Source: Tetramitus jugosus (lineage: Eukaryota > Protista > Heterolobosea). From it: a stretch of 64,000 nt of DNA. Shown piece after piece: positions 1-57,831 of the stretch. The stretch is taken from contig OW569378.1 of assembly GCA_937625935.1 (NCBI GenBank), positions 1-64,000 of the forward strand, written 5' to 3'. Every line of letters starts with the position of its first letter. Within the stretch, counting starts at the first letter, position 1. The notes under the pieces were generated by a model. That model saw nothing but the letters and a program-made list of their open reading frames with translations. It made no database searches and was not told the DNA's origin. A program made the position numbers and the translations under genes.

Positions 1-731
1 CCAACCCAAACCAACAACCCAAACCCAAACCCAAACCCAAACCCAAACCCAAACCCAAACCCAAACCCAAACCCAAACCCAAACCCAAACCCAAACCCAA
101 ACCCAAACCCAAACCCAAACCCAAACCCAAACCCAAACCCAAACCCAAACCCAAACCCAAACCCAAACCCAAACCCAAACCCAAACCCAAACCCAAACCC
201 AAACCCAAACCCAAACCCAAACCCAAACCCAAACCCAAACCCAAACCCAAACCCAAACCCAAACCCAAACCCAAACCCAAACCCAAACCCAAACCCAAAC
301 CCAAACCCAAACCCAAACCCAAACCCAAACCCAAACCCAAACCCAAACCCAAACCCAAACCCAAACCCAAACCCAAACCCAAACCCAAACCCAAACCCAA
401 ACCCAAACCCAAACCCAAACCCAAACCCAAACCCAAACCCAAACCCAAACCCAAACCCAAACCCAAACCCAAACCCAAACCCAAACCCAAACCCAAACCC
501 AAACCCAAACCCAAACCCAAACCCAAACCCAAACCCAAACCCAAACCCAAACCCAAACCCAAACCCAAACCCAAACCCAAACCCAAACCCAAACCCAAAC
601 CCAAACCCAAACCCAAACCCAAACCCAAACCCAAACCCAAACCCAAACCCAAACCCAAACCCAAACCCAAACCCAAACCCAAACCCAAACCCAAACCCAA
701 ACCCAAACCCAAACCCAAACCCAAACCCAAA
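1..731. repeat. Telomeric repeat array (CCCAAA)n / (TTTGGG)n, left chromosome end
   Basis: About 120 tandem CCCAAA units from the window start, C-rich strand on +. The first ~17 nt are slightly degenerate. Confidence 0.97.
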
Positions 732-35973: not shown

Positions 35974-38900
35974 TCAGGTGCTGAGCAGTGTTTCACTCCT
36001 CTTCACGACGGAGTTAATATATACTTTGTGAAGTGCTTTGACACAGGCCCTCTTCATGGAGTCCACCATACCTCTTATTACTTTCTCTGCCTCCTTTTGT
36101 TTCCTGCCGGAGAGCACCATTACATCCAATAGTTCTTTCCTAAAACCTCCCTCTTTGCCCATTAGTCCCTCCAACAGTCTTTCGGGTGATCGCTTGACAT
36201 TTCGTGGCATAATCTTGCCCCTTTCATATATCGCATCGTCAAACCAGAGTACAATTTTGGCAGAATCAGGCAACCTCAGTCTATCTAATTTAAACTTCAT
36301 CTCTTCAACTAGTTTCTTTCTGGCTATAACGGCAAACTCGCATTCCACCAACAGATGCAGAATACTCTCCGGTGCGGCAGCACAGTTAAGACACACTTCA
36401 TCTACACTGGCCTTGTACAATTCTCTCATCACCGTCTTAGTGTGAAGTGTTCCACTCCTGACTTGATGATAGAACCAAAGTTCTTTCCTTTCTAGGCCAA
36501 ATGGACATTTCAGAAAGTGGTTCCACTCCTTTTCCTTCAACATTTCAGCTTCCAACCACCAGTTCTTATTTGTACCAATAGCCTCGGATCTAGCCTTCTT
36601 AAGCAGTTCTGTAAGACCTTCACTGACGTTAGGATTGTCAATTCTCACATCCTTCAACTTTACAACCAATTCCCCCTGACCTTTTCGTTTTGCAAGAAAT
36701 TTTTCATCACACGGCTTGCCGAGAAGTTCCATATATGCTCGTACTCTCATGTACTTGACTGGTCCGATTCCTTTCATTTTGTACCTTTTCTTCGCCTCTT
36801 CGTATGTCATCGCCATGACACCATCATCATCAAACAGCTGTGAGTTCCTAGTTATACCAGAACGGAGGAGCAATCTCGCCTCCCCACTAGGGAGGCTCCA
36901 AGCAATACTACACTTTTCGCACTCATGAGCATCATCAGTGCTGATGACCACACCAGAACCGTGGAGAAGTTTGGCGCACCATGCCAAGTATGAATGTTTT
37001 ACCTCACGAAGACGAGTACTGGATTTGAAGATGCTCGACCTTACGAGCGTATGATTATGCTTGACCTCATCAAGCGTATCCAGTAACAGTGTCCGTGCTT
37101 CTGTGTCCCTCTTCCCTTGAAGCATGGCTGAAACAAAAGCGCAAATTCTGGAGACCAGGCTATCCTTGAAACCATTAAGGCCAATACCACCATAATCTCT
37201 TCCCACTGACAATAAATCGGATGGAAACCTTTTCAGAGCACCAGACCCATGCTTAACTGCTTTTCGGCCAATACCCTCTATCTCATTCAGCCACCTCTTT
37301 GGCCAGTGGGTGAATTCAGACGCAAACAGAAAGACAGGATGTACACATGTGTTCACAATGCGTGCTGTCTGGGCTGGACTCAGCCTTAGAAGTTTCACTC
37401 TATTTAGTATTCGAAGTACCTTCATCTTGGCTTGTTTCTTTTGAGCTTCCGTCTCACCCTTCAGGTTTGTGTAAAGACCTAGTGCCCTGAACACCGTGGT
37501 CTTGTCCTTTGCTACAATTTGTTTTTCAGCAACTCTCATAGTTACAGGCTCCTTTCCAGTGATTCGAGCGTAGAACTCTAACTTGTCTGGGTGCATGCAA
37601 AGTCCCAACCAACTCAGAGCTCTGTACATCGCATTGGCTGTTGTTTCAATATCCAGAAGGTTGTCACTCAGTAGATTGCAGTCATCTACATATGCAACGT
37701 TCCATATCCTCTGTGATATTGCCTCATATCCTGTCGCTCTCACCCCTGCATATAGCAGCACCAGTTGATGGACGATTACATATGTGGTCGGGGAGAGAGA
37801 ATCTCCCTGTCTAGTTCCGCGATCAACATAGAACCTTCGGGACTTACACTGTGTTCCTATTCTAGCCTCATTTGACTCAAGCATATCATGGATGAGTGAA
37901 ATGATTCTCTCCGGATAGCCGAAATACCTGTAAGCTGACGTAATAGCATTGTGCGGCACACTATCAAATGCTTTCGATATATCTGTTAGGAGGACAAACA
38001 ACTGTTTATCTTTTCTATTCGCATGATCTATTACACCTCTGATGATGGACAACTTTTCGCGAATGTCCCGTAATTTGCGCCCCCCTCCCTGGGTATTGCT
38101 AAAGACTCCTGTCTTCTCTGCCGCTTCAGACACTCTTTTATTTAAGAGTCGAGTGAACACTTTTGACAAACCACTTAGTAGGCAAATGGGGCGGAAATTT
38201 GCTATTGTCATAGGACATCCCTTCTTATATGCTGGCACAATGACGCATTGCTTCCACATGACAGGAAAATGCCCTGTCTGTAATATGTTGTTGAAAAAGG
38301 AAGTGAGAAATTCTGCGAACTCATACCTAAAGTCTCTCTTTTTTGTCGAGGCCAGTTTCAACATTTCATTGAATACTCGATCCACCCCTGGGGCCTTGCC
38401 ATTCCTTAGCCACTTCAGTGCTTGTTGCACCTCTTCAACCTCAAACTCCGGGAAACAATCCTCCATGTTCTGCCTTCTGGGCCCCAGTTCATCGAGAAAT
38501 GACATATTTGCCATCTCATACTCAAATACCTCCTCGAAGTAATTAGCCGCATGTTCGGCTACTTTCACTGGATCAGTCACTATGCATTCATTACTCTTAT
38601 AGCTTTTAAACCTCAGCCTTAGCGATTTCTTTCCTGTAGCGGCATTGAAGAAGAATCGAGGATCAATGAATTCCGTAGTCCTGGCCTTAAAGAGCCATTT
38701 TGTGAACCTTTTGTTCCCCCTTCGGGCTCTTTCTTCTTGTATTCGCTTCTCAATTTTCTTCAGAGCCCTCAGCATGCCCTCTTGTGTGTTCTCCTCCCCG
38801 TACGTATTACAAATGCTTGCAACCTTCGGCGACTCTGTCCAGGTAGAGGAGAGTTTCTCTACAACCCACTCTCTGTCTTTCAACCACCTCCTGATCCTCC

Positions 38901-39828
38901 TATTGTCAATCCCTTTGTTCCTCTCCTTTTTGATAGGAAACACTTTCGCACTTTCTGTGAGCGTATTCGTCATGCGTTCACATTGCTCATCAACCGTTAA
39001 TGTCGAGAGTGGAATTCCTTCTAGCCTGCTCACAACTGACTGTGAGTACTTCACCCACCTTTGGTCATTCTTCTTCGGGAACCTAGGTTCTTCCTCTCTT
39101 ACATTGTGTTCTTCCTGAACTTTCCACTCCACCTTCACCAATGTAGGCACATGGTCACTATTCACACCATTTGCCGTGTATCTACATACATCACGGACTA
39201 CCTCTGCAGCAGCCGTGTTGCACCACACCGAGTCAATTCGTGATGAATAGCTCTTCCTAAAGAAGGTGTGGAAAAGTGGGCTTTCCACTATCGTGTTTAC
39301 ACATAGCAATTGTGTTCCCTCTATGAGCGCCCTGAAATGAGAGCTGTTGCCGTCGAGCTTCCCTGAGCTCCTCTCACTATTGACGATGACCGTATTGTGA
39401 TCTCCTCCGAAAAGAACTTTGCCTCTACAGGCAATTTCTCGCAGCCATTCATTTACAACAACATAATGTTGTCCTCCAGCAGCTTCTTTGTGGGGTCCGT
39501 AATGATTTACCAGTGTAATGCGCAGTTCACCGCTCGATACTTCCACTGCAAGGAGTCTCTCATTGCCTTCAATCACTCTACAATCTTGAATACTAGCACG
39601 GCGTACAATACTCATAACCCTGTCTGTTATCGAGTTACATATGAGTAAGCAACCCGCCATCTCAAGCTGTTTGGTGAAGGAAACCTTAAATTTCTCGCTA
39701 CCACAGCTGGCCTCTTGTAACATTAAGACATCGATATCGGGGCTCGATTCCATCATGGCTACAACATCACATCTCTTACTCTTAAGCCCCCTGATGTTGT
39801 ACCATACGACATTTAAAGTTGCACTCAT
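35974..39828 (-). CDS. LINE ORF2: APE endonuclease, reverse transcriptase, C-terminal CCHC zinc motif
   Basis: YNIRG, LQE, GDHN, SRID, SDH (APE); APGVD, FRPICL, DISKAFDSV, GTRQGDSLSP, YVDD (RT); CLNC-x7-SILHLLVEC. Confidence 0.97.
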   Translation of the reverse strand: MSATLNVVWYNIRGLKSKRCDVVAMMESSPDIDVLMLQEASCGSEKFKVSFTKQLEMAGCLLICNSITDRVMSIVRRASIQDCRVIEGNERLLAVEVSSGELRITLVNHYGPHKEAAGGQHYVVVNEWLREIACRGKVLFGGDHNTVIVNSERSSGKLDGNSSHFRALIEGTQLLCVNTIVESPLFHTFFRKSYSSRIDSVWCNTAAAEVVRDVCRYTANGVNSDHVPTLVKVEWKVQEEHNVREEEPRFPKKNDQRWVKYSQSVVSRLEGIPLSTLTVDEQCERMTNTLTESAKVFPIKKERNKGIDNRRIRRWLKDREWVVEKLSSTWTESPKVASICNTYGEENTQEGMLRALKKIEKRIQEERARRGNKRFTKWLFKARTTEFIDPRFFFNAATGKKSLRLRFKSYKSNECIVTDPVKVAEHAANYFEEVFEYEMANMSFLDELGPRRQNMEDCFPEFEVEEVQQALKWLRNGKAPGVDRVFNEMLKLASTKKRDFRYEFAEFLTSFFNNILQTGHFPVMWKQCVIVPAYKKGCPMTIANFRPICLLSGLSKVFTRLLNKRVSEAAEKTGVFSNTQGGGRKLRDIREKLSIIRGVIDHANRKDKQLFVLLTDISKAFDSVPHNAITSAYRYFGYPERIISLIHDMLESNEARIGTQCKSRRFYVDRGTRQGDSLSPTTYVIVHQLVLLYAGVRATGYEAISQRIWNVAYVDDCNLLSDNLLDIETTANAMYRALSWLGLCMHPDKLEFYARITGKEPVTMRVAEKQIVAKDKTTVFRALGLYTNLKGETEAQKKQAKMKVLRILNRVKLLRLSPAQTARIVNTCVHPVFLFASEFTHWPKRWLNEIEGIGRKAVKHGSGALKRFPSDLLSVGRDYGGIGLNGFKDSLVSRICAFVSAMLQGKRDTEARTLLLDTLDEVKHNHTLVRSSIFKSSTRLREVKHSYLAWCAKLLHGSGVVISTDDAHECEKCSIAWSLPSGEARLLLRSGITRNSQLFDDDGVMAMTYEEAKKRYKMKGIGPVKYMRVRAYMELLGKPCDEKFLAKRKGQGELVVKLKDVRIDNPNVSEGLTELLKKARSEAIGTNKNWWLEAEMLKEKEWNHFLKCPFGLERKELWFYHQVRSGTLHTKTVMRELYKASVDEVCLNCAAAPESILHLLVECEFAVIARKKLVEEMKFKLDRLRLPDSAKIVLWFDDAIYERGKIMPRNVKRSPERLLEGLMGKEGGFRKELLDVMVLSGRKQKEAEKVIRGMVDSMKRACVKALHKVYINSVVKRSETLLST

Positions 39829-40850
39829 AGTTCGTTTTGTTCTGTCTCTTGTGTGAGTTCATTTGTTGATACAACTTTACTCACCTTGACAGTACCTCCT
39901 GGAGAATTCCTCATTATAATTTTCCTCTGTACCTCGTCAACTTCTACTTCTGCAGCTTCTCTTTTTTTCCCTCTACTTTCAGTTCTCGTTGCATAGTCAG
40001 TCATTCTGGTCTGACTTTTGCTCGGTCTCTCTCCATCTCCTCGTTTTTCCCTTTTCTTATGTGCTACTGGCGTGTAGATATGCCCCTCTACTTCAGTTTC
40101 ATTATTGTCAATCTCATCTATCATATTCAATTGGATAGTGTTTGTCTGTTTGACCACTCTGGTTCTTTCTCCCATCAAATCGCTCACTCTGGCTCTCATC
40201 TTTGCCATTTCAGCTTTGAGACTTCTAATATCCTCAATGCTCTTCGCATACTGGTCTAACGCCTTGTGTAATTCCTCTTGGAGTTGAAACACATTCCTTT
40301 TCAGCTGCTCAGTAGGATCTTGGGTGCGGTTCACATATTTTCTTGTCTTCGTATTGGTCATTGGTACTTTTCCTAACAATACTGCTGCATAGGTTGAGTC
40401 CTTCGTTGAAACAATGGCTGAATTTCCTTTGAGTTCCACATTACAGATGTTATCCCTACCTGCCCACTCTACGATATCTTCGATATCCGCTTTTCCTGCT
40501 CCGACCAACACCACGTCATGTGTCGCTCTCATGCGACCGTTTGGAATGGCCTTCTCATGGTTCAACACTTTTGTGCGCTCAAGCCACTTGATAAATTCCC
40601 ACACTTTATCACCTTTAACAACAATCCATGCCTTGTATCTCTCTCCTCTTCTACTAACTTGAACCCTTTCCACCCACTCAGAACAACTACCGACAATCCT
40701 GTTCACGATAGCCTCGTTTCCGTTGTTGCTCTTTCCAGTAACAACTACCTCCTTTCTCTTCAATGCCTCTTCCTTGCTGACTAATGTCCATGCGACATAC
40801 TGCATTCTGCGAATGACTACCGCCTGTACTGACGGTCCTTGTGTTGACAT
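39825..40850 (-). CDS. LINE ORF1 (putative RRM-like domains plus coiled coil plus basic disordered tail)
   Basis: 341-aa ORF whose TGA overlaps the ORF2 ATG (ATGA). The domain assignment is inferred from residue patterning. Confidence 0.9.
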   Translation of the reverse strand: MSTQGPSVQAVVIRRMQYVAWTLVSKEEALKRKEVVVTGKSNNGNEAIVNRIVGSCSEWVERVQVSRRGERYKAWIVVKGDKVWEFIKWLERTKVLNHEKAIPNGRMRATHDVVLVGAGKADIEDIVEWAGRDNICNVELKGNSAIVSTKDSTYAAVLLGKVPMTNTKTRKYVNRTQDPTEQLKRNVFQLQEELHKALDQYAKSIEDIRSLKAEMAKMRARVSDLMGERTRVVKQTNTIQLNMIDEIDNNETEVEGHIYTPVAHKKREKRGDGERPSKSQTRMTDYATRTESRGKKREAAEVEVDEVQRKIIMRNSPGGTVKVSKVVSTNELTQETEQNEL

Positions 40851-40866
40851 GTGCTCGCGTTTTTTT

Positions 40867-50579: not shown

Positions 50580-50807
50580 ATCTGGCACTGAAATGCAAGA
50601 ACAAGAAACTCCTACTCTAAAAATACAACCTTCCAAATTTCCTTCAGCTTCTTTTCTGCAGCGGCAGTGTCAAAAATACCTTTTTGTGCTGTTCTGCTGT
50701 TGTTCAAAAACACCTTGATTCCAAAAAACAAATCATCTGCATCAAGATAAAAAACACCTTATCGAATAATACACAACCCCCACATCCCAACAACAAAAAT
50801 CATCATC

Positions 50808-53800
50808 ATGATGCAACCAGACGAAGACGACGATTTTTTTCAACCAATAACGAAAAATACCAATCAGTCGTCCAAAAAAAAGAATGGAAAAAAGAAGAAC
50901 AGCACTCATCAACAAAATTTCAACACTTTTGCAATCTTATCCAACCTTGACTCATCCATCACAAGTAATTCTGCTGCTTGTTCACCTCCATCATCACCAC
51001 TCGCTGACAACAACTATAGTCAAAATGATAATGACGATGAGAATCCAATGACAAAATCTCTACTTTCTTCATTCATTATTGAAGATTATCAAAATAAGAA
51101 GACTGTTAATCACAACAACAATAAGAATTCAAGCAGTCGGAGTAATTCTTCTTCCATACAACAACAACAACAACAGGAATTGGAATATCAATCAGAGTTG
51201 AGTGATAGTTCACCAGAGAATGACTCAACAACCTATCATTCCATTGCCAATGAATCAACACGTGATTCATTAGCTTCTTCACCTGTTTCTCTCTCTTCAC
51301 CACCTCACAATGATGACAATGATGACAATGATGATGAGGAGTATGTGGTGGAAGAAGAACAACAACATCAACAACCCATGACTACTCAGAAGGAGAATAT
51401 CGATGATGAACAAGAACAAGATTTTATCAACCAACAACAACAACAACAACAACAACAAGAAGAAGAAGAAGTAGGAGAGTTGGTCAATCCGTTCCTATCG
51501 GATAACGATGAAGATGATGACCAAGAGGTAAACAATCAACAGTCTTCTTCGTCGTCCTATGCTCCAATGTACTCTCCTCTGTCATCTCTCATGTCAGCAG
51601 AACAGCAACAGCAGCAAGAGCAACAGAATGTAAATGAAGATCATGAAGAAGAAGATCGTGTGAGTGATCATGGTCATGTAGAATATGAAAGTGAGGTAAT
51701 AATGCCAGTGTACTATAATAATAATGATAACAACAGTGACAATGAGAGAGATGAAGTGGATTACAATGAAGATGAGGAGAATGATGCCTATTTCAAGCAA
51801 GAGAATGATTATTCTCAAGATATTCAAGAGTATCAACCAAATCTCGCTTTGCATTCCATTGCATTGAATGAAGAAAGTCATCGCCATGAAGAACAACACC
51901 AGGAGCAAGAAGAAGAAGAGGAGATTCAAGTTCCTGCTGTTTCTCCATCATCCAATCAGAAGAGGGATCAATCACGGCAAGCAGTTCTTGATCAAAATGA
52001 GAATGAGATAGAACAGTTGTTGTCACAGGAAGAGCAAGAGTTGATCAACAATAATGAACAAGCAAAACCATCAACAGCGCCACAAGAGTATCCTATCGTC
52101 AAGAATCAAACCACTCTGTATCCAACTCTCATGTCAGGAGCAACTCCAAAGAGAGCCAACACTCTCTATGAAATGAAGGCCCTTACTCACAAGGTTGTGG
52201 ACCGTGATGGCGTTCCATTGGATCACGAGTGTTTCAAAGGACAATGGACCGATCAAGAATACTTTCGACAATTGTCGTACAAACCAACAGAGTACACGTT
52301 CTTGATTGATGGATCAACGGGTGTTGCGACTTCGGGTCAATCCGGCAGTGATGGTGCTACAGGAAAGGCAGGTATGAGTGGGCGACGCGGTGGTTATGCT
52401 GAGAATGGTGAATCAGGCTCTGACGGAGAAGATGGATCCGATGGACTCAATGGTGCCAATGGCAAGCATGGAGTCAACGCATATCCCATTTACGTTCGTG
52501 TCGATGGTGATGAACAACAGTTGAGTTTGTCTGGTTCCTATCATGGAATGATACCTCTAGGGAATCCTAATCCTGATCAAGTTGGAAATCCATCTCTCGT
52601 ATATATCGATGCCTGTGGTGGAGATGGTGGACAAGGTGGCAACGGAGGTCGTGGAGGTAATGGAGGAAACGGAGGCAACGGTGGTCCAGGTGGTGAACCA
52701 GAGAGTCATGTGAGTGCCAATGGAAATGAAATGATTGGTGGTAGAGGAGGTGACGGAGGCAGTGGTGGTAACGGTGGTAATGGAGGTCATGGTGGCAATG
52801 GCGGAAACGGTGGCAAAGGTGGCAGTATTCTGATTGAAGCGACAAAGAGCGAGTTGTTCATGTTCATGGAAGTGAATGTCTTGGGTGGAAAGAGTGGAAA
52901 GGGTGGAGAAGGTGGCAAAGGTGGAGTGGGAGGTAAGGGTGGTTCAGCTGGTCACGGTTTTCTCACCTACGAGGATAAGATGAAGGGAGTCGATGGTCGA
53001 ATGGGAACCTCGGGCACGGAAGGACTAAATGGACGATCAGGTGTCGAAGGTGCGCCTGGTAACGTGTACTATGTCGTCCTAAATCCTGATTTATCCGTCA
53101 AGGAACAGGGATATAAGAAGTACACTGTCAAGGTTGTCAGTTACAATGTCAGAGGAGTGGATGATGATGGTATCTTTGAGCCAAATGATGAAATTATGAT
53201 CACTGATATTGTATTGGAGAATGATGGTCATATTACATTGCCAAAGGGATGCAAGTTATCGTTGACTCGAAATGACATGTTCACTCCTATTGAAAGTGGA
53301 GATTTGCTACCTGAAATTCCACCAAACTCTCGAATCACTGTCGGTTTCAACCTAAGAGGCAGAATCAATAGTGTTCCCACTCCAACAGCACCTGGTCGCT
53401 ACAATCAAAAGCTCGAGATTTGTACCAAATGTCATTTGCTCGGCAAGGAGTTTAGGGATTCGACATATGGAAAGAACATTGATGTCACTTATCCGATTCA
53501 GTTAGGAAGAGCCACTCATCCAAAGGCAATGGCACCGGGTGATGTTGCTACATTCAAGATTGAAGTTGCAAACATATCTACTGTGTACTATGGCACGAAA
53601 TCAGATGGTGGACAACCCATTGACTACAAGGTAACATTTGACGAACGCTTCCAACTGTTGAATCACGATCAAAAGAATTCAATGGAGGGATCCATTGAGA
53701 AACTAGCTCCTGGCAGTGCCAAAACAATTGAGTTCTCTGTTAAACTACTCAATAGTGCTGCTTTCTATGAACAGCTAACTTGGAAAGTAGAGTTAAGGTT

Positions 53801-55211
53801 CAGGGACACATTGATCGAGTTTTCAGAGATCCCTCTCAGAGTTTGTCCAAGATTCAACACTCAAGAAGCATCCAGCTCCGATTTACTGCTGATCACACAT
53901 TCAATGATTACTCAGAGAGAATACTTGTTGTACAATAAGATATTTGAAGGATTAGGATTGAAAGCATCCTTCTTTGACTCTGAAATGTACAATGGCATTA
54001 GTGTGAATAGTATCACCAACAAACCCAATGAATGGGTTGGCAAGTTTGTAGGCAAACCAATTTTGCTCCCACTCAAGAACTTGAATGATATCTCCTTGCT
54101 CCATGGTGGCGATATAGTGTCTCATTTCCATGGAAATACAAATGACAACGAAGACAGAAACGAATCAGGATTTGTAATCATTGGAGTGTCTAAGAACATT
54201 TCTCAATTCAGAGAAAACATGAAACAACATTTGTTTGATAGCATGGGATCCGGTGCTGGTGTCTACGAAATTTCTGAAAAGAAACTGAGTGACTACTTTA
54301 TTATGACTGCTCCTACGGTGGAAACTATGAATTTATGTTTGAATAAGACAGTAGAGGATTACACGAAGAAGCAGCCATCTCAAGTGTTCAAAGCTTACAA
54401 GACTGAGTTTGCTCCTAGAAAGTTGAATATGTTCAACCTTTACACTCACGGTAAAGGAGTTCTCAAGCAGTTGCCACTGAACAAAATTCATCGATTCCAA
54501 TTGGTGACAAATGGCGATGAAACCTTGGAACACAATCCACTGTTTTTGTCAACATCTCGGACTTCGACTGACGATGACAATACATTCAGAGATTCACTGA
54601 ATCGCTCCGACTTTTACACAGAAGAGAGATTCTTTGAGGTATTGTTGGCCATTATCTCATCTCTCTCAATCACAAAGAAGATGCACATGTTAATGGATGA
54701 TCACCAACAATATATGAAGTGCAAAGACTGGAACTTTATTGTTGATGAGACATATGCAGGAAGGAGGAACTCTTCATCAAGACAAATGACATCTAGTCAT
54801 AAGAGGATAACCATCAACGATCTCTTGGCTGTTAGCTTGTATAACGACTTGAAGACTGAATACTTCTATCCAGATTTGGGACTGAGAAGAGCAATTCTCT
54901 TCTGTCAGATTGCCAAAGCCAACGCATCAAAACTTAGAACCATGAATGAAGCTTTGTACACAATCTGGTTGGTCATGTCCAGAATGGTCAGTCACACATT
55001 CTGGAGATCACTTCCCTATTTTTCAAGCTTGAGCGACAAGAGAAACAGCCTTATTGCACTCAGAGCTGAATTGGAGAAGGTTCTCTTTGATAATTCTTCA
55101 GTGACCAATGTGTCCTTGGAGATGAAGAGAAGAGCAGAGAGCGATGCTGAAAACAAGGACCGTTTGAAGATGGAGGATTTACAAAAAGTCACTGTGTCAC
55201 TCCTTCAATAA
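50808..55211 (+). CDS. Large protein with acidic low-complexity N-terminus, Gly-X-Y repeats and Ig-like C-terminal region
   Basis: 1467-aa ORF with several GxxGxx tracts at ~52330-53060. Confidence 0.85.
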   Translation: MMQPDEDDDFFQPITKNTNQSSKKKNGKKKNSTHQQNFNTFAILSNLDSSITSNSAACSPPSSPLADNNYSQNDNDDENPMTKSLLSSFIIEDYQNKKTVNHNNNKNSSSRSNSSSIQQQQQQELEYQSELSDSSPENDSTTYHSIANESTRDSLASSPVSLSSPPHNDDNDDNDDEEYVVEEEQQHQQPMTTQKENIDDEQEQDFINQQQQQQQQQEEEEVGELVNPFLSDNDEDDDQEVNNQQSSSSSYAPMYSPLSSLMSAEQQQQQEQQNVNEDHEEEDRVSDHGHVEYESEVIMPVYYNNNDNNSDNERDEVDYNEDEENDAYFKQENDYSQDIQEYQPNLALHSIALNEESHRHEEQHQEQEEEEEIQVPAVSPSSNQKRDQSRQAVLDQNENEIEQLLSQEEQELINNNEQAKPSTAPQEYPIVKNQTTLYPTLMSGATPKRANTLYEMKALTHKVVDRDGVPLDHECFKGQWTDQEYFRQLSYKPTEYTFLIDGSTGVATSGQSGSDGATGKAGMSGRRGGYAENGESGSDGEDGSDGLNGANGKHGVNAYPIYVRVDGDEQQLSLSGSYHGMIPLGNPNPDQVGNPSLVYIDACGGDGGQGGNGGRGGNGGNGGNGGPGGEPESHVSANGNEMIGGRGGDGGSGGNGGNGGHGGNGGNGGKGGSILIEATKSELFMFMEVNVLGGKSGKGGEGGKGGVGGKGGSAGHGFLTYEDKMKGVDGRMGTSGTEGLNGRSGVEGAPGNVYYVVLNPDLSVKEQGYKKYTVKVVSYNVRGVDDDGIFEPNDEIMITDIVLENDGHITLPKGCKLSLTRNDMFTPIESGDLLPEIPPNSRITVGFNLRGRINSVPTPTAPGRYNQKLEICTKCHLLGKEFRDSTYGKNIDVTYPIQLGRATHPKAMAPGDVATFKIEVANISTVYYGTKSDGGQPIDYKVTFDERFQLLNHDQKNSMEGSIEKLAPGSAKTIEFSVKLLNSAAFYEQLTWKVELRFRDTLIEFSEIPLRVCPRFNTQEASSSDLLLITHSMITQREYLLYNKIFEGLGLKASFFDSEMYNGISVNSITNKPNEWVGKFVGKPILLPLKNLNDISLLHGGDIVSHFHGNTNDNEDRNESGFVIIGVSKNISQFRENMKQHLFDSMGSGAGVYEISEKKLSDYFIMTAPTVETMNLCLNKTVEDYTKKQPSQVFKAYKTEFAPRKLNMFNLYTHGKGVLKQLPLNKIHRFQLVTNGDETLEHNPLFLSTSRTSTDDDNTFRDSLNRSDFYTEERFFEVLLAIISSLSITKKMHMLMDDHQQYMKCKDWNFIVDETYAGRRNSSSRQMTSSHKRITINDLLAVSLYNDLKTEYFYPDLGLRRAILFCQIAKANASKLRTMNEALYTIWLVMSRMVSHTFWRSLPYFSSLSDKRNSLIALRAELEKVLFDNSSVTNVSLEMKRRAESDAENKDRLKMEDLQKVTVSLLQ

Positions 55212-55342: not shown

Positions 55343-55735
55343 TTATTGACATCTTGGCTCAGGTTTTACAATGATTTCAATCTGAACATTCTTGGAGTTG
55401 TTGAGCGCCAGCAATGGAGCATTGATGGATACTCCAGCTCTGTACAATTCTGACATGACCTTGGAATAAGTAATGGTTGCTTGTTGAAATGCAGTCATTG
55501 CCTCTTTCTTGCACTCGTTGACAGGACTAACTTGCCCACAACCAAAATCACGCACAACAATCTTTGAGTTGGGATTTGCTCCGCTAATTTCGAACAAGAA
55601 GCGGTAAGTGTCAAGCAGACTATTGATTTTGCCAATGTCATCGGAACTGATTCTTACAGTACCATTATTGGTAATTGTAAAAACTTGGGTATAAGCTGCA
55701 ACATAGTTTGTGTAACTTTGTTTAATTGGGTCCAT
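55343..55735 (-). CDS. Hypothetical protein
   Basis: 130-aa ATG ORF with an AC-rich leader like other genes in the window. Confidence 0.65.
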   Translation of the reverse strand: MDPIKQSYTNYVAAYTQVFTITNNGTVRISSDDIGKINSLLDTYRFLFEISGANPNSKIVVRDFGCGQVSPVNECKKEAMTAFQQATITYSKVMSELYRAGVSINAPLLALNNSKNVQIEIIVKPEPRCQ

Positions 55736-56031
55736 GACTTGTTTGGGTTATTGTTTTGTTTGTGGTGTGTCACAACGATAATCTGGCCTTAAAAACCAAA
55801 AACCTGGTTGGTTTGCAGGACCCATCAAACAATAGTTCTGGCGCCAGAAACAAATTGTAACAGCGAGCGGAACATTTTTGCAAGGGAAAGTAAGACAAGA
55901 ATTCTGTAACTGGTTTTTTTGTATGCTGCTTCAATTTCCGTTGAAACTGTCTTTACAACGGCAAAGGCCATCTACCTCGGTTGAAAAAGCTGTCTTTTTC
56001 GCTGTTTGATTCAACCCACAAATACAACATT

Positions 56032-56320
56032 ATGCCACGAGGCGTGCCTAAGGACGGCAAGAGAAAAGCTGTCGACAAATACTCATCACACCATCAGAAA
56101 TGTCATCATTGCCATTCTCACATGAAGCCAGTCAAGCATTAGAGAATAGACAAGAATGGAGAATTGAATGTCTCTGTGGTCAGAGGTTAAACAGTGTGCA
56201 ACCACTAAATGTTTAGTGACTCACAACACAGACATCAACACGGCCAAGAACATGCTCCATCTACTGAGAAATGGATGGACAGTCACGTCCCGATGCCTTC
56301 AAGAGGAAGAAAAAGGTCGC
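56032..56320 (+). pseudogene. Internally deleted Fanzor1-like nuclease remnant
   Basis: MPRGVPKDGKRK fused to VDKYSSHHQKCHHCH...VRG/KQCATTKC...HNTDINTAKNM...GQSRPDAFKR. This matches VDEYxTSxxCxxC / CxxxxC / NRDxNAAxNI / RP. Stop codon and frameshifts present. Confidence 0.82.
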
Positions 56321-56334
56321 AAAAGAATTAATCA

Positions 56335-56471
56335 AAATGGTGGAACACCTTCAAAGGCTCACTCCATCAAGCTGCTATGTAAGTCCCGATTATGTAGGAG
56401 CGTTAAGGTGTCTTATCGGGAAACCATAATGTTTTTATTATGGCTTGATGGACAGTAGACCGCCACCTTAA
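56335..56471 (+). ncRNA. Putative omegaRNA scaffold
   Basis: Helices 56363-72/56443-52 (10 bp), 56384-90/56415-21 and 56424-30/56437-43. An 8-bp pseudoknot pairs TTAAGGTG (56403-10) with CACCTTAA (56464-71). Confidence 0.7.
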
Positions 56472-56481
56472 TTATGATATG

Positions 56482-57831
56482 TTAGAAGCACTTCTTGAGG
56501 CAAATTCTGCCACTTCCTTCTTCCTGATACTCTTGTCGTGTAATCCAGTCAATCTTTGTGTTGCCAGTTGCTTCTTCCGAAGCCCAAGCCTTTCCACCGA
56601 GCCAAACACTTGACGTTGTTCCTTGTTCTTCCTGATCCAAGTAGGCATGATTCACATTGACTGACTTTGCCAACTTGTCATCACACGTGTGTCTCACATA
56701 GTTGGACACTTCTTGCTGCAATCGAGCAGAGAAATTATGGAACAGTGTGTTACCACCAGACAACACAATATTAGAGTACAAGGCACTTCTATCCTCTGGT
56801 TTCACCTTTTGAACCGCATCGAAAATACTCTTTTGAATCGAAGAGTCATCAAATATGCCCAACACTTGCGGATTGAACATGGATTCCACAACTTTGAAAG
56901 CTTCACCACCAATTTCCAATGACTCACCACTAGGAAGCTCCAATTCTTGAACAAATTCCTCTGGACTCTGAGCCAACCCCTTCAACTCCTCATTGAGATC
57001 CATTGCCGTGTACGCCATATTTTTCTTGACGTGCTGAGCGACACGATGCGCATCAGAAGCAGCAAGCTCGAATCCCGCCGTTTTCACCATCTCCAAAATG
57101 TAACTCGACAAAACTTGTCCGGCGACGGGGAAATGCACAGTAGAAGTGTACAGCGGCTTATTGTTAAGCACGGGGGTAATGCTGGAGAAGGAAGCTCCAC
57201 TGGAGACGGCCAAACCGTTCAAGACACCACTTGGGCTCTGATTTCTCATGGCCAACACACCAGGAGCTTCCATATAGAAGCGTTCACAATTGAAGTACTC
57301 GACAAAAAGCTCGCAAGTTCCCTGTCGGTGAATCATGGAGCTCAACGGATCCGCAGTTACAATGACGGGGTTTCTTTCTGGTTGATAATTGGCGCCAAAT
57401 TTTTCGCTATTTTGATCGTAAGCAAACTGAATGATGGCTTCGTATTGATCCCAATCAACAATAGCTCCACTCTGATATGGATACCTCAATACTGTAGATG
57501 GTTCAGAACTCGTTGGTTTCTTTGTTCTTTGCTGTTGCTCCTTTACATTTCTCCGATTACTGCGCACAGAAGAAGATTGAGCATTTTGCTTCTTTTGATT
57601 GGCAAGCTTCGCCTTCTTGACAGCGTCCTTGCCCACTGTAAACTCTGGTTTCTTGTTCTTGGGCACAGGAAGCTCAAACGAAACGACAGTCGGAATAATT
57701 GTCGGATTTTTTTCCGTCTGTAAACCAAACTTGGTTTCGAATTGTCCAATATCAAATATGAGTGCGGCTTGACTGGCGTTGGTGTTACTCGATGATTGCA
57801 ACGATGTTTTTTGAGATGTAGGAGGCGGCAT
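56482..57831 (-). CDS. Divergent actin-related protein
   Basis: IFDIGQFETKFG, YP..SGAIVDWD, LYSNIVLSGGNTLF..F..RL, VWLGG, WITRQEYQEEG...KKCF. Confidence 0.92.
   Translation of the reverse strand: MPPPTSQKTSLQSSSNTNASQAALIFDIGQFETKFGLQTEKNPTIIPTVVSFELPVPKNKKPEFTVGKDAVKKAKLANQKKQNAQSSSVRSNRRNVKEQQQRTKKPTSSEPSTVLRYPYQSGAIVDWDQYEAIIQFAYDQNSEKFGANYQPERNPVIVTADPLSSMIHRQGTCELFVEYFNCERFYMEAPGVLAMRNQSPSGVLNGLAVSSGASFSSITPVLNNKPLYTSTVHFPVAGQVLSSYILEMVKTAGFELAASDAHRVAQHVKKNMAYTAMDLNEELKGLAQSPEEFVQELELPSGESLEIGGEAFKVVESMFNPQVLGIFDDSSIQKSIFDAVQKVKPEDRSALYSNIVLSGGNTLFHNFSARLQQEVSNYVRHTCDDKLAKSVNVNHAYLDQEEQGTTSSVWLGGKAWASEEATGNTKIDWITRQEYQEEGSGRICLKKCF

What the first reader, a model, noticed from the sequence alone, without database searches (positions are those of the whole stretch)
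55787..56495. Dead Fanzor with an intact-looking pseudoknotted omegaRNA whose guide would cover the end of an actin-related gene
Seen: a short basic N-terminus is fused by deletion to the RuvC-II/zinc finger/RuvC-III tail of a Fanzor1-like protein. The catalytic-motif Glu reads Lys, and there is a stop and frameshifts. The ~135 nt downstream still form perfect helices and an 8-bp loop-to-3'-end pseudoknot ending in CACCTTAA. CCTTAA also occurs at 55787-55792, directly before a hairpin. Known: TnpB/Fanzor omegaRNAs overlap the element right end, end in a pseudoknot and use flanking DNA as the guide. Inference: the guide is about TTATGATATGTTAGAAGCAC (56472 onward, antisense to the ARP stop region) and the TAM may be TTAA-like. 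The RNA could work in trans with an intact Fanzor to cut empty alleles, implying an uncharacterised RNA-guided nuclease family in this genome.
Basis: partly seen in the sequence, partly recalled or inferred. Interest (0 to 1): 0.78.

Follow-up and report, generated by a model that had tools for sequence, protein, structure and literature searches.

The report
Broken Fanzor copy keeps RNA end
This is a wrecked copy of a multi-copy jumping gene, probably of an amoeba, whose relatives encode a complete Fanzor protein (a eukaryotic cousin of CRISPR scissors); the copy has lost most of that gene but kept the end that likely makes the guide RNA, and a version of the chromosome without the insertion exists, so the likely cut site can be read off and tested.

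Summary
Real, but smaller and more ordinary than proposed. About 55933-56471 is a left-truncated, internally deleted copy of a multi-copy Fanzor1 element. Complete relatives (648-743 aa, all three RuvC acids) exist in metagenomes; their only structural match is SpuFz1. The right end at 56471 is confirmed: loose ends start there in 7 of 7 runs laid. An element-free haplotype shows a single TTAA at the site, so TTAA is target sequence. Four corrections: 55787 is single-copy host DNA, not the left end; the empty site reads TTTTAA-TTATGATA, not GGCCTTAA; the catalytic Glu is deleted, not changed to Lys; and the pseudoknot is not required, because a nested three-hairpin fold of Fanzor1 type has the same energy (-39.7 against -39.9 kcal/mol). 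Published Fanzor1 RNAs lack a pseudoknot. The scaffold is unchanged while the gene fragments carry about ten private changes (p 0.02-0.1). The guide matches the empty allele for only 9 nt, then slips by 2, and barely touches the actin-related gene's stop codon. Expression and cutting are untested. Verdict: new member of a known kind, with a readable natural target and a predicted TAM longer than TTAA.

The parts
55913..55932 (.). 20-nt junction sequence where host left flank, left TTAA and the element's left end are missing
   Evidence: Element-free haplotype leaves the window after 55912 and has about 71 other letters before 56482; family contigs match only from 55933
55933..56031 (+). Remnant of the element's upstream (likely promoter/5' UTR) region, multi-copy
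   Evidence: Depth rises above flank level; loose ends before 55933 in X1, X2, X4
56032..56093 (+). Fanzor N-terminus (MPRGVPKDGKRK..DKYSSH), with a small internal deletion
   Evidence: tblastn to P0009 1-25 and P0010 1-26; loose ends behind 56066
56094..56382 (+). Fanzor C-terminal fragment: zinc finger, RuvC-III, RPxAF tail; stop at 56140-42, frameshifts near 56185 and 56266. About 518 codons (REC, WED, RuvC-I Asp, RuvC-II Glu) are missing before it, by P0009 numbering
56338..56471 (+). Predicted omegaRNA scaffold, overlapping the last codons and including the 3' TTAA; 5' end not determined
   Evidence: Folds; contigs identical to 56354-56414 and 56401-56471 in X2; expression not shown
56403..56410 (+). 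TTAAGGTG, exact complement of the last 8 nt (closing stem or pseudoknot)
56468..56471 (+). TTAA target sequence (likely 3' target-site duplication); element terminus ..CACC at 56467
   Evidence: One TTAA at the element-free site; different flanks follow in other copies
56472..56486 (+). Predicted 14-15 nt guide; TG at 56480-81 is absent from the element-free allele
   Evidence: guide length by analogy with PMC10432273 and PMC10711439
56482..57837 (-). Host actin-related gene; stop codon at 56482-56484, next to the insertion
   Evidence: Pfam Actin E 5.7e-57
55787..55792 (+).

Best explanation
55933-56471 is a left-truncated, internally deleted copy of a multi-copy Fanzor1-carrying element that sits at a TTAA just past the stop codon of an actin-related gene; its unchanged right end likely still encodes the omegaRNA scaffold, which a complete Fanzor from another copy would load in trans. 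Shown: the family, the right end, the TTAA target, the empty allele, the loss of two of three catalytic residues. Inferred: a cut-and-paste DNA transposon with a TTAA duplication (Kolobok-like ..CC end) made the insertion; the scaffold runs from about 56338 through TTAA, most simply as three nested hairpins closed by the 8-bp stem; the guide is the next 14-15 nt; the TAM is TTAA plus at least one upstream base (T at the empty site, C in the element), which spares the filled allele; cutting the empty allele and repair from the filled one would copy the element back (homing). At this locus today the guide pairs with the observed empty allele for 9 nt only, so it would cut weakly or not at all, and the copy cannot transpose without its left end.
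For: Protein family and SpuFz1 match. Shared right end in 7 of 7 runs and in L001. Element-free haplotype with one TTAA in X2, and the same haplotype's left joint in X1. Depth about 26-32 times the flank in X2 (1600.7 against 50.6-61.1; the tool warns that depth is no copy number). Other copies are open at the stop and at both frameshifts. About 10 private changes in 56094-56353 against 0-1 in 56354-56471, p 0.024-0.098. Nested fold with a 7-bp first stem, -39.7 kcal/mol, in line with the 7-bp SL1 of three Fz1 structures (PMC11423790 section 5) and the three-stem, TSD-in-scaffold shape (PMC10711439 section 27).
Against: No small-RNA data: contigs give neither strand nor ends, and RNA-run contigs that join the actin-related gene to the element end may be host 3' UTR read antisense (AATAAA on the minus strand at 56434-39). 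The reverse strand folds equally well. The conservation contrast is weak, its boundary was chosen after seeing the data, the read tables list only part of the differences, and gene conversion among copies would give the same pattern. No complete ORF was shown in this organism; the complete proteins come from other samples, 61-75% identical to P0003. The left end, the left TTAA and any transposase were not seen (no transposase among the 35 frames scanned). Only one empty site is known, so the TAM rests on one case. At least one other copy has changes that break the lower helices.
Confidence: 0.62

Rival explanations
1. Same element, but the RNA is a three-way junction (10-bp stem 56363-72/56443-52) whose loop pairs with the last 8 nt as a TnpB-like pseudoknot; the invariant TTAA duplication would let a Fanzor1 keep or regain it.
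For: The 10-bp stem has pair probabilities mostly near 0.82 (0.65-0.83) and crosses the 8-bp helix, so both together make a pseudoknot. Pseudoknot-ready fold -35.2 plus an 8-bp duplex of -8.3 kcal/mol before the pseudoknot penalty. 0 of 3000 shuffles have as many perfect 7-mer stems.
Against: A nested fold uses the same strands at equal energy, because TGGTGGA at 56338 offers a second partner. Three papers state that Fanzor1 RNAs lack the pseudoknot. The GtFz1 RNA in the Saito supplement has, by eye, a 10-bp stem closing at the 3' end of its scaffold. No covariation could be measured; the one variant seen changes the 3' strand while the contig upstream is unchanged.
Confidence: 0.22
2. The right end is an inert relic: the helices are inherited from the active family and survive by chance or by gene conversion among copies; no functional RNA is made at this locus, where the opposite strand is the 3' UTR of the actin-related gene.
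For: Left end and part of the upstream region are lost. The guide is out of register with the empty allele. The conservation contrast is only p 0.02-0.1. RNA contigs of X15 and X5 run from the host gene into the element.
Against: Zero differences to an abundant family type over 118 nt while the neighbouring coding fragments have about ten; ATG-proximal upstream DNA is still there; ghost omegaRNAs work in Spu-1.
Confidence: 0.3
3. The carrier is not a TIR transposon with a TTAA duplication but an element without duplication (Helitron2- or IS-like) whose own end is CCTTAA and which prefers T-rich TTAA sites; truncated alleles arise by one-ended copying as in CRe-1.
For: No left end or TIR was seen; many copies are deleted or truncated (L001; loose ends); in X5 a contig carries the same left flank, then TTAATTAT, then only the last ~75 nt of the element. 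CRe-1 Fanzor elements show 5' truncation and variable duplications after TTTT (PMC3627910 passages).
Against: The overlap of filled and empty junctions is exactly TTAA; the ..CC end fits the Kolobok rule, and Kolobok is reported from Naegleria (PMC9587614 passage). Depth in X2 shows no strong excess of 3' ends over the C-terminal coding part. The X5 case is one low-depth contig.
Confidence: 0.15

Closest known systems
SpuFz1 / Spu-1 of Spizellomyces punctatus and its ghost loci (PMC10432273; PDB 8GKH)
   Same: Only solved-structure match of the family proteins; multi-copy element with full, partial and RNA-only loci; scaffold at the right end, guide from flanking DNA; TAM is TSD plus upstream bases.
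   Different: Target TTAA, not CA-TA; scaffold about 135 nt, not 75; this copy keeps coding fragments and has lost its left end, unlike ghost loci with both IRs; no IR seen.
GtFz1 of Guillardia theta (PMC10432273, PMC11423790)
   Same: TTAA-containing TAM (TTAAN), long RNA (about 150 nt) that overlaps the last codons, multi-stem scaffold.
   Different: No sequence match to GtFz1 in the PDB searches at E up to 1 or 10; here TTAA also ends the scaffold, so discrimination must come from bases upstream.
TnpB (IS200/605, IS607) and Fanzor2 reRNAs with a pseudoknot (PMC10711439)
   Same: A loop-to-3'-end pairing is possible just before the guide.
   Different: The protein is Fanzor1-like in size and sequence; the pairing is 8 bp, includes the target TTAA and has an equally stable nested alternative.
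Kolobok DNA transposons (PMC9587614)
   Same: TTAA target, YY-3' terminus, reported in Naegleria.
   Different: No transposase, TIR or left end seen. No Kolobok-Fanzor pairing was found in the passages read of the one paper, among 17 listed, that holds all three terms.
CRe-1/2/3 Fanzor1 elements of Chlamydomonas (PMC3627910)
   Same: Many 5'-truncated copies with a fixed 3' end, T-rich target.
   Different: Those are Helitron2-linked with variable duplications; here the end is fixed at TTAA.

Membership tests
Fanzor1 | RuvC triad with the RuvC-II Glu moved next to the zinc finger (DExxTS..C) | tested here: met
   GIDPG, DE[FY]MTS and NRD in 5 of 5 relatives checked (P0003, P0007-P0010). In the window copy the first two are deleted and the third reads NTD.
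Fanzor1 | Large protein (600-750 aa) with extended REC region, similar to SpuFz1 over its length | tested here: met
   648-743 aa; P0009 129-617 aligns to SpuFz1, E 2.1e-15; no Fanzor2 or TnpB chain at E below 0.07
Fanzor1 | Placement in the Fanzor1 clade on a tree | not tested
   No reference set was on hand as stored proteins
Fanzor1 | omegaRNA expressed from the right end with a 14-15 nt flanking guide | not testable with these tools
   Only contigs were available
Fanzor1 | Scaffold includes the 3' TSD and has no pseudoknot | tested here: inconclusive
   TTAA is paired in both folds; nested and pseudoknotted folds cannot be told apart
Fanzor1 | TAM-dependent, RNA-guided DNA cleavage | not testable with these tools
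   Needs a bench assay
Spu-1-type ghost locus | Both element ends present, Fanzor ORF absent | tested here: not met
   Left end lost, ORF fragments kept. It may still work like one.
Kolobok | TTAA target-site duplication | tested here: inconclusive
   TTAA at the right junction and once at the empty site; left junction deleted
Kolobok | YY-3' terminus | tested here: met
   ..CACC before TTAA in the window..CC kept in L001. Two bases are weak evidence.
Kolobok | 5'-RR terminus, TIRs, DDD/E transposase | not testable with these tools
   No genome held; no transposase among the 35 window frames scanned
TnpB/Fanzor2-type reRNA | Conserved pseudoknot between a stem loop and the scaffold 3' end | tested here: inconclusive
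   Exact 8-bp complement present; no covariation data; no Rfam family at gathering score

The most novel reading that the evidence does not exclude
A Fanzor1 family in a heterolobosean amoeba rides a TTAA-specific (Kolobok-like) transposon, has an 8-bp pseudoknot built on the invariant TTAA, against the published rule that Fanzor1 RNAs lost it, and the series of alleles at this one site (empty, left-deleted 540 nt, 75-nt remnant, filled without TG) is the scar record of Fanzor homing in a living eukaryote.
Probability: 0.15. Interest if true: 0.75.

Novelty: new member of a known kind. Interest (0 to 1): 0.45.

Why it matters
Homing by RNA-guided transposon nucleases is shown for bacterial TnpB and IscB; the 2026 review lists no Fanzor case among the experiments on restorative homing (PMC13565253, passage seen). 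A sample that holds both a filled and an empty allele, in a family with some tens of copies, is the setting in which it can be tested. The family also offers complete 648-743 aa Fanzor1 proteins with a mapped RNA end and a predicted T-rich TAM. The Naegleria Fanzors seen in the published tables were Fanzor2 or unassigned (5 of 5 rows in Saito file 3; 2 of 20 rows seen in Yoon), so a Fanzor1 from this group may be new. The copy in the window is itself only a dead remnant.

Tried and rejected
No whole genome is held, so copies were studied through contigs of public runs. Rfam: 3 weak C/D-box matches far below gathering score, ignored. Pfam on the broken fragments alone: no TnpB family; the match needs the complete relatives. 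Self-BLAST of the window: no second copy. P0006 is a repetitive protein matching upstream non-coding sequence, rejected. L002-L013 (12 of 13 loci) are distant TnpB or Fanzor hits with no DNA match to the region. Right-end pattern: 0 hits in viral and genome contigs; protein scans of those collections: none confirmed. AlphaFold model of P0003: mean pLDDT 43, not used, no fold search run. A covariation lead (variant 3' strand matching an S-R-S-S tail in P0004/P0007/P0008) was dropped: the motif is 3 residues out of register and the upstream contig in X4 (56354-56423) is unchanged. A TTAA near several left junctions was dropped as a statistic, since at least two of those loose ends are coding sequence of the element or a relative. 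Rising depth toward the right end in RNA runs is not used as evidence of expression. ESM Atlas: P0003 scores 0.98 with PF07282/DUF8286 clusters, in agreement but not independent.

Full report
Setting. The window starts with 119 CCCAAA repeats and is gene-dense with long open frames. TTTGGG is the candidate telomere repeat of Naegleria gruberi (PMC3622300, passage seen), and an earlier AI note on this genome also guessed a Naegleria-group amoeba. The host is therefore probably a heterolobosean; this was not tested by phylogeny. The finding lies between a 130-aa frame (55343-55735, minus) and the stop codon of an actin-related gene (Pfam Actin, E 5.7e-57).

The protein. The frame 55945-56208, read with X at its stops, finds P0003 (360 aa, PF07282, 70% identity, E 6.2e-11; 1 of 14 candidates). 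P0003 led to P0004 and P0005 and, with their alignment, to four complete proteins of 648-743 aa (4 of 6633 candidates). P0003 and all four carry GIDPG, DE[FY]MTS and NRD. The only significant solved-structure match is SpuFz1. P0009 begins MPRGVSKNGKRK..DKYSSHY, so the window's DKYSSHH is N-terminal sequence. The deletion joins residue 25 to residue 544 by P0009 numbering and removes REC, WED, the RuvC-I Asp and the RuvC-II Glu. The stop and both frameshifts are real; other copies are open at these places.

The boundaries. Seven public runs were laid (7 of 24 listed; all contigs; X1, X2 and X4 come from one study and may be the source of the assembly; their library type is not on record). Depth is high only from about 55933 to 56471; in X2 the main family contig has depth 1600.7 against 50.6-61.1 in the flanks, which suggests some tens of copies but is no copy number. 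Loose ends with different flanks begin at 56468-56474 in all seven runs. L001, a metagenome contig 98% identical to P0003, is another deleted copy that ends in CCTTAA. The CCTTAA at 55787 is in single-copy DNA, 146 nt before the first family base, with no unusual fold.

The empty site. One X2 contig (1434 nt, depth 61.1) follows the window to 55912, carries about 71 other letters and rejoins at 56482; X1 shows the left joint of the same haplotype and a contig that starts exactly at 56482. Its last letters before the gene read ..TACTTT TTAA TTATGATA. So TTAA occurs once at the empty site and is target sequence; the element ends in ..CACC. The window allele has lost about 59 nt of host flank, the left TTAA and the element's left end. 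The TG at 56480-81 is absent from the empty allele and from the filled alleles of X15 and X17, and present in X1, X4 and X5; it most likely arose on the filled haplotype. The guide therefore matches the empty allele for 9 nt and then slips by 2. That the two forms are alleles and not paralogues is inferred from the shared gene sequence and the branch at 56482. Because the filled allele also has TTAA before a perfect guide match, the TAM should include an upstream base, as CATA does in Spu-1 (inference; PMC10432273 section 7; PMC13565253 passage).

The RNA. But three folds compete: the free minimum (-39.9), a nested three-hairpin fold closed by the 8-bp helix and opened by a 7-bp stem (-39.7), and a pseudoknot-ready fold (-35.2, plus an 8-bp duplex of -8.3 before the penalty). 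The nested fold fits what is published for Fanzor1: a 7-bp first stem (PMC11423790 section 5), three stems with the TSD in the scaffold and no pseudoknot (PMC10711439 section 27 and discussion passage; PMC10432273 figure legend). Covariation could not be measured. The window copy is identical to abundant family contigs over 56354-56471, with one loop position (56431) variable among copies, whereas 56094-56353 has 10 events that differ from the other copies (two minority variants, 56146 and 56283, left out as not private). The contrast has p 0.024-0.098 and a boundary chosen afterwards. No call shows that the RNA is made. Contigs of RNA runs X15 and X5 join the actin-related gene to the element end, which fits host 3' UTR on the opposite strand.

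Mechanism. Most likely a TTAA-targeting DNA transposon carrying Fanzor1 inserted 8 nt past the stop codon; the copy then lost its left end and most of its gene. The right end would still give a scaffold plus guide that a complete Fanzor loads in trans, to cut the empty allele and restore the insertion by repair from the filled one. Family, end, target and empty allele are shown; carrier type, RNA, TAM, trans loading and cutting are inferred. The guide reaches only the stop codon, so the link to the actin-related gene is incidental. With the 2-nt slip, cutting of the present empty allele should be poor, which would explain why both alleles coexist.

What is known. Ghost loci, trans action and TTAA-type TAMs are published. 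Searches: Fanzor/omegaRNA (listing), Fanzor+Kolobok+TTAA (listing), Fanzor1+pseudoknot (listing), Fanzor+homing terms (listing). A family peptide motif was absent from the supplements searched of PMC10432273 (file 3), PMC10530073 and PMC10711439. One Saito file could not be read, the Jiang files gave no hit even for Naegleria, and only 2 of 20 Naegleria rows in Yoon were seen, so a prior listing of this family or of a heterolobosean Fanzor1 is not excluded. Papers were seen as passages or named sections, none whole: PMC3627910, PMC10530073, PMC9587614, PMC13565253 and PMC3622300 as passages only.

Verdict. Observation partly confirmed, interpretation partly supported. New member of a known kind; interest 0.45. 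The bold reading (pseudoknot on an invariant TTAA, Kolobok-like carrier, homing scars) stands at about 0.15.

Noticed in passing
window 55343-55882: The 130-aa frame (minus, 55343-55735) is mostly missing on the element-free haplotype: 412 nt are skipped and the rest has 8 other letters and 6 gaps in 112 nt (X1, X2). No Pfam family; Atlas hit only 0.90 to unnamed bacterial clusters. Looks like a hemizygous orphan gene.
   Followed up: partly
window 56396-56471, run X5: One contig has the empty allele's left flank, then TTAATTAT, then only the last ~75 nt of the element, lacking the TTAAGGT strand. Could be an aborted copy-in after a cut at the empty allele, or a plain deletion.
   Followed up: partly
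right flanks at 56471-56474: The same flanks recur across runs coded as different organisms (one in X2, X15, X17; one in X17, X5; one in X15 and L001), so several insertions are old or the organisms are close kin.
   Followed up: no
window 56434-56439 (minus strand): AATAAA inside the element, about 45 nt past the stop of the actin-related gene, whose own downstream flank is deleted on this allele; the element may supply the gene's poly(A) signal and the mRNA would be antisense to the omegaRNA.
   Followed up: no
window 35974-40865 (minus): Open 1294-aa frame with a reverse transcriptase domain (E 3e-25) overlapped by a 346-aa upstream frame: an intact-looking retroelement.
   Followed up: no
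window 1-731: Telomere array of 119 CCCAAA repeats.
   Followed up: partly
window 50751-55211 (+): 1486-aa protein with a Gly-rich collagen-like repeat and DUF7932.
   Followed up: no
window 56340-56387 against P0009 tail: The window's extra base at 56353 puts the tail in the frame of the more distant P0009 (VEHL.RL.PSS..V.P), while most copies read another frame; the tail seems conserved as DNA or RNA, not as protein.
   Followed up: partly
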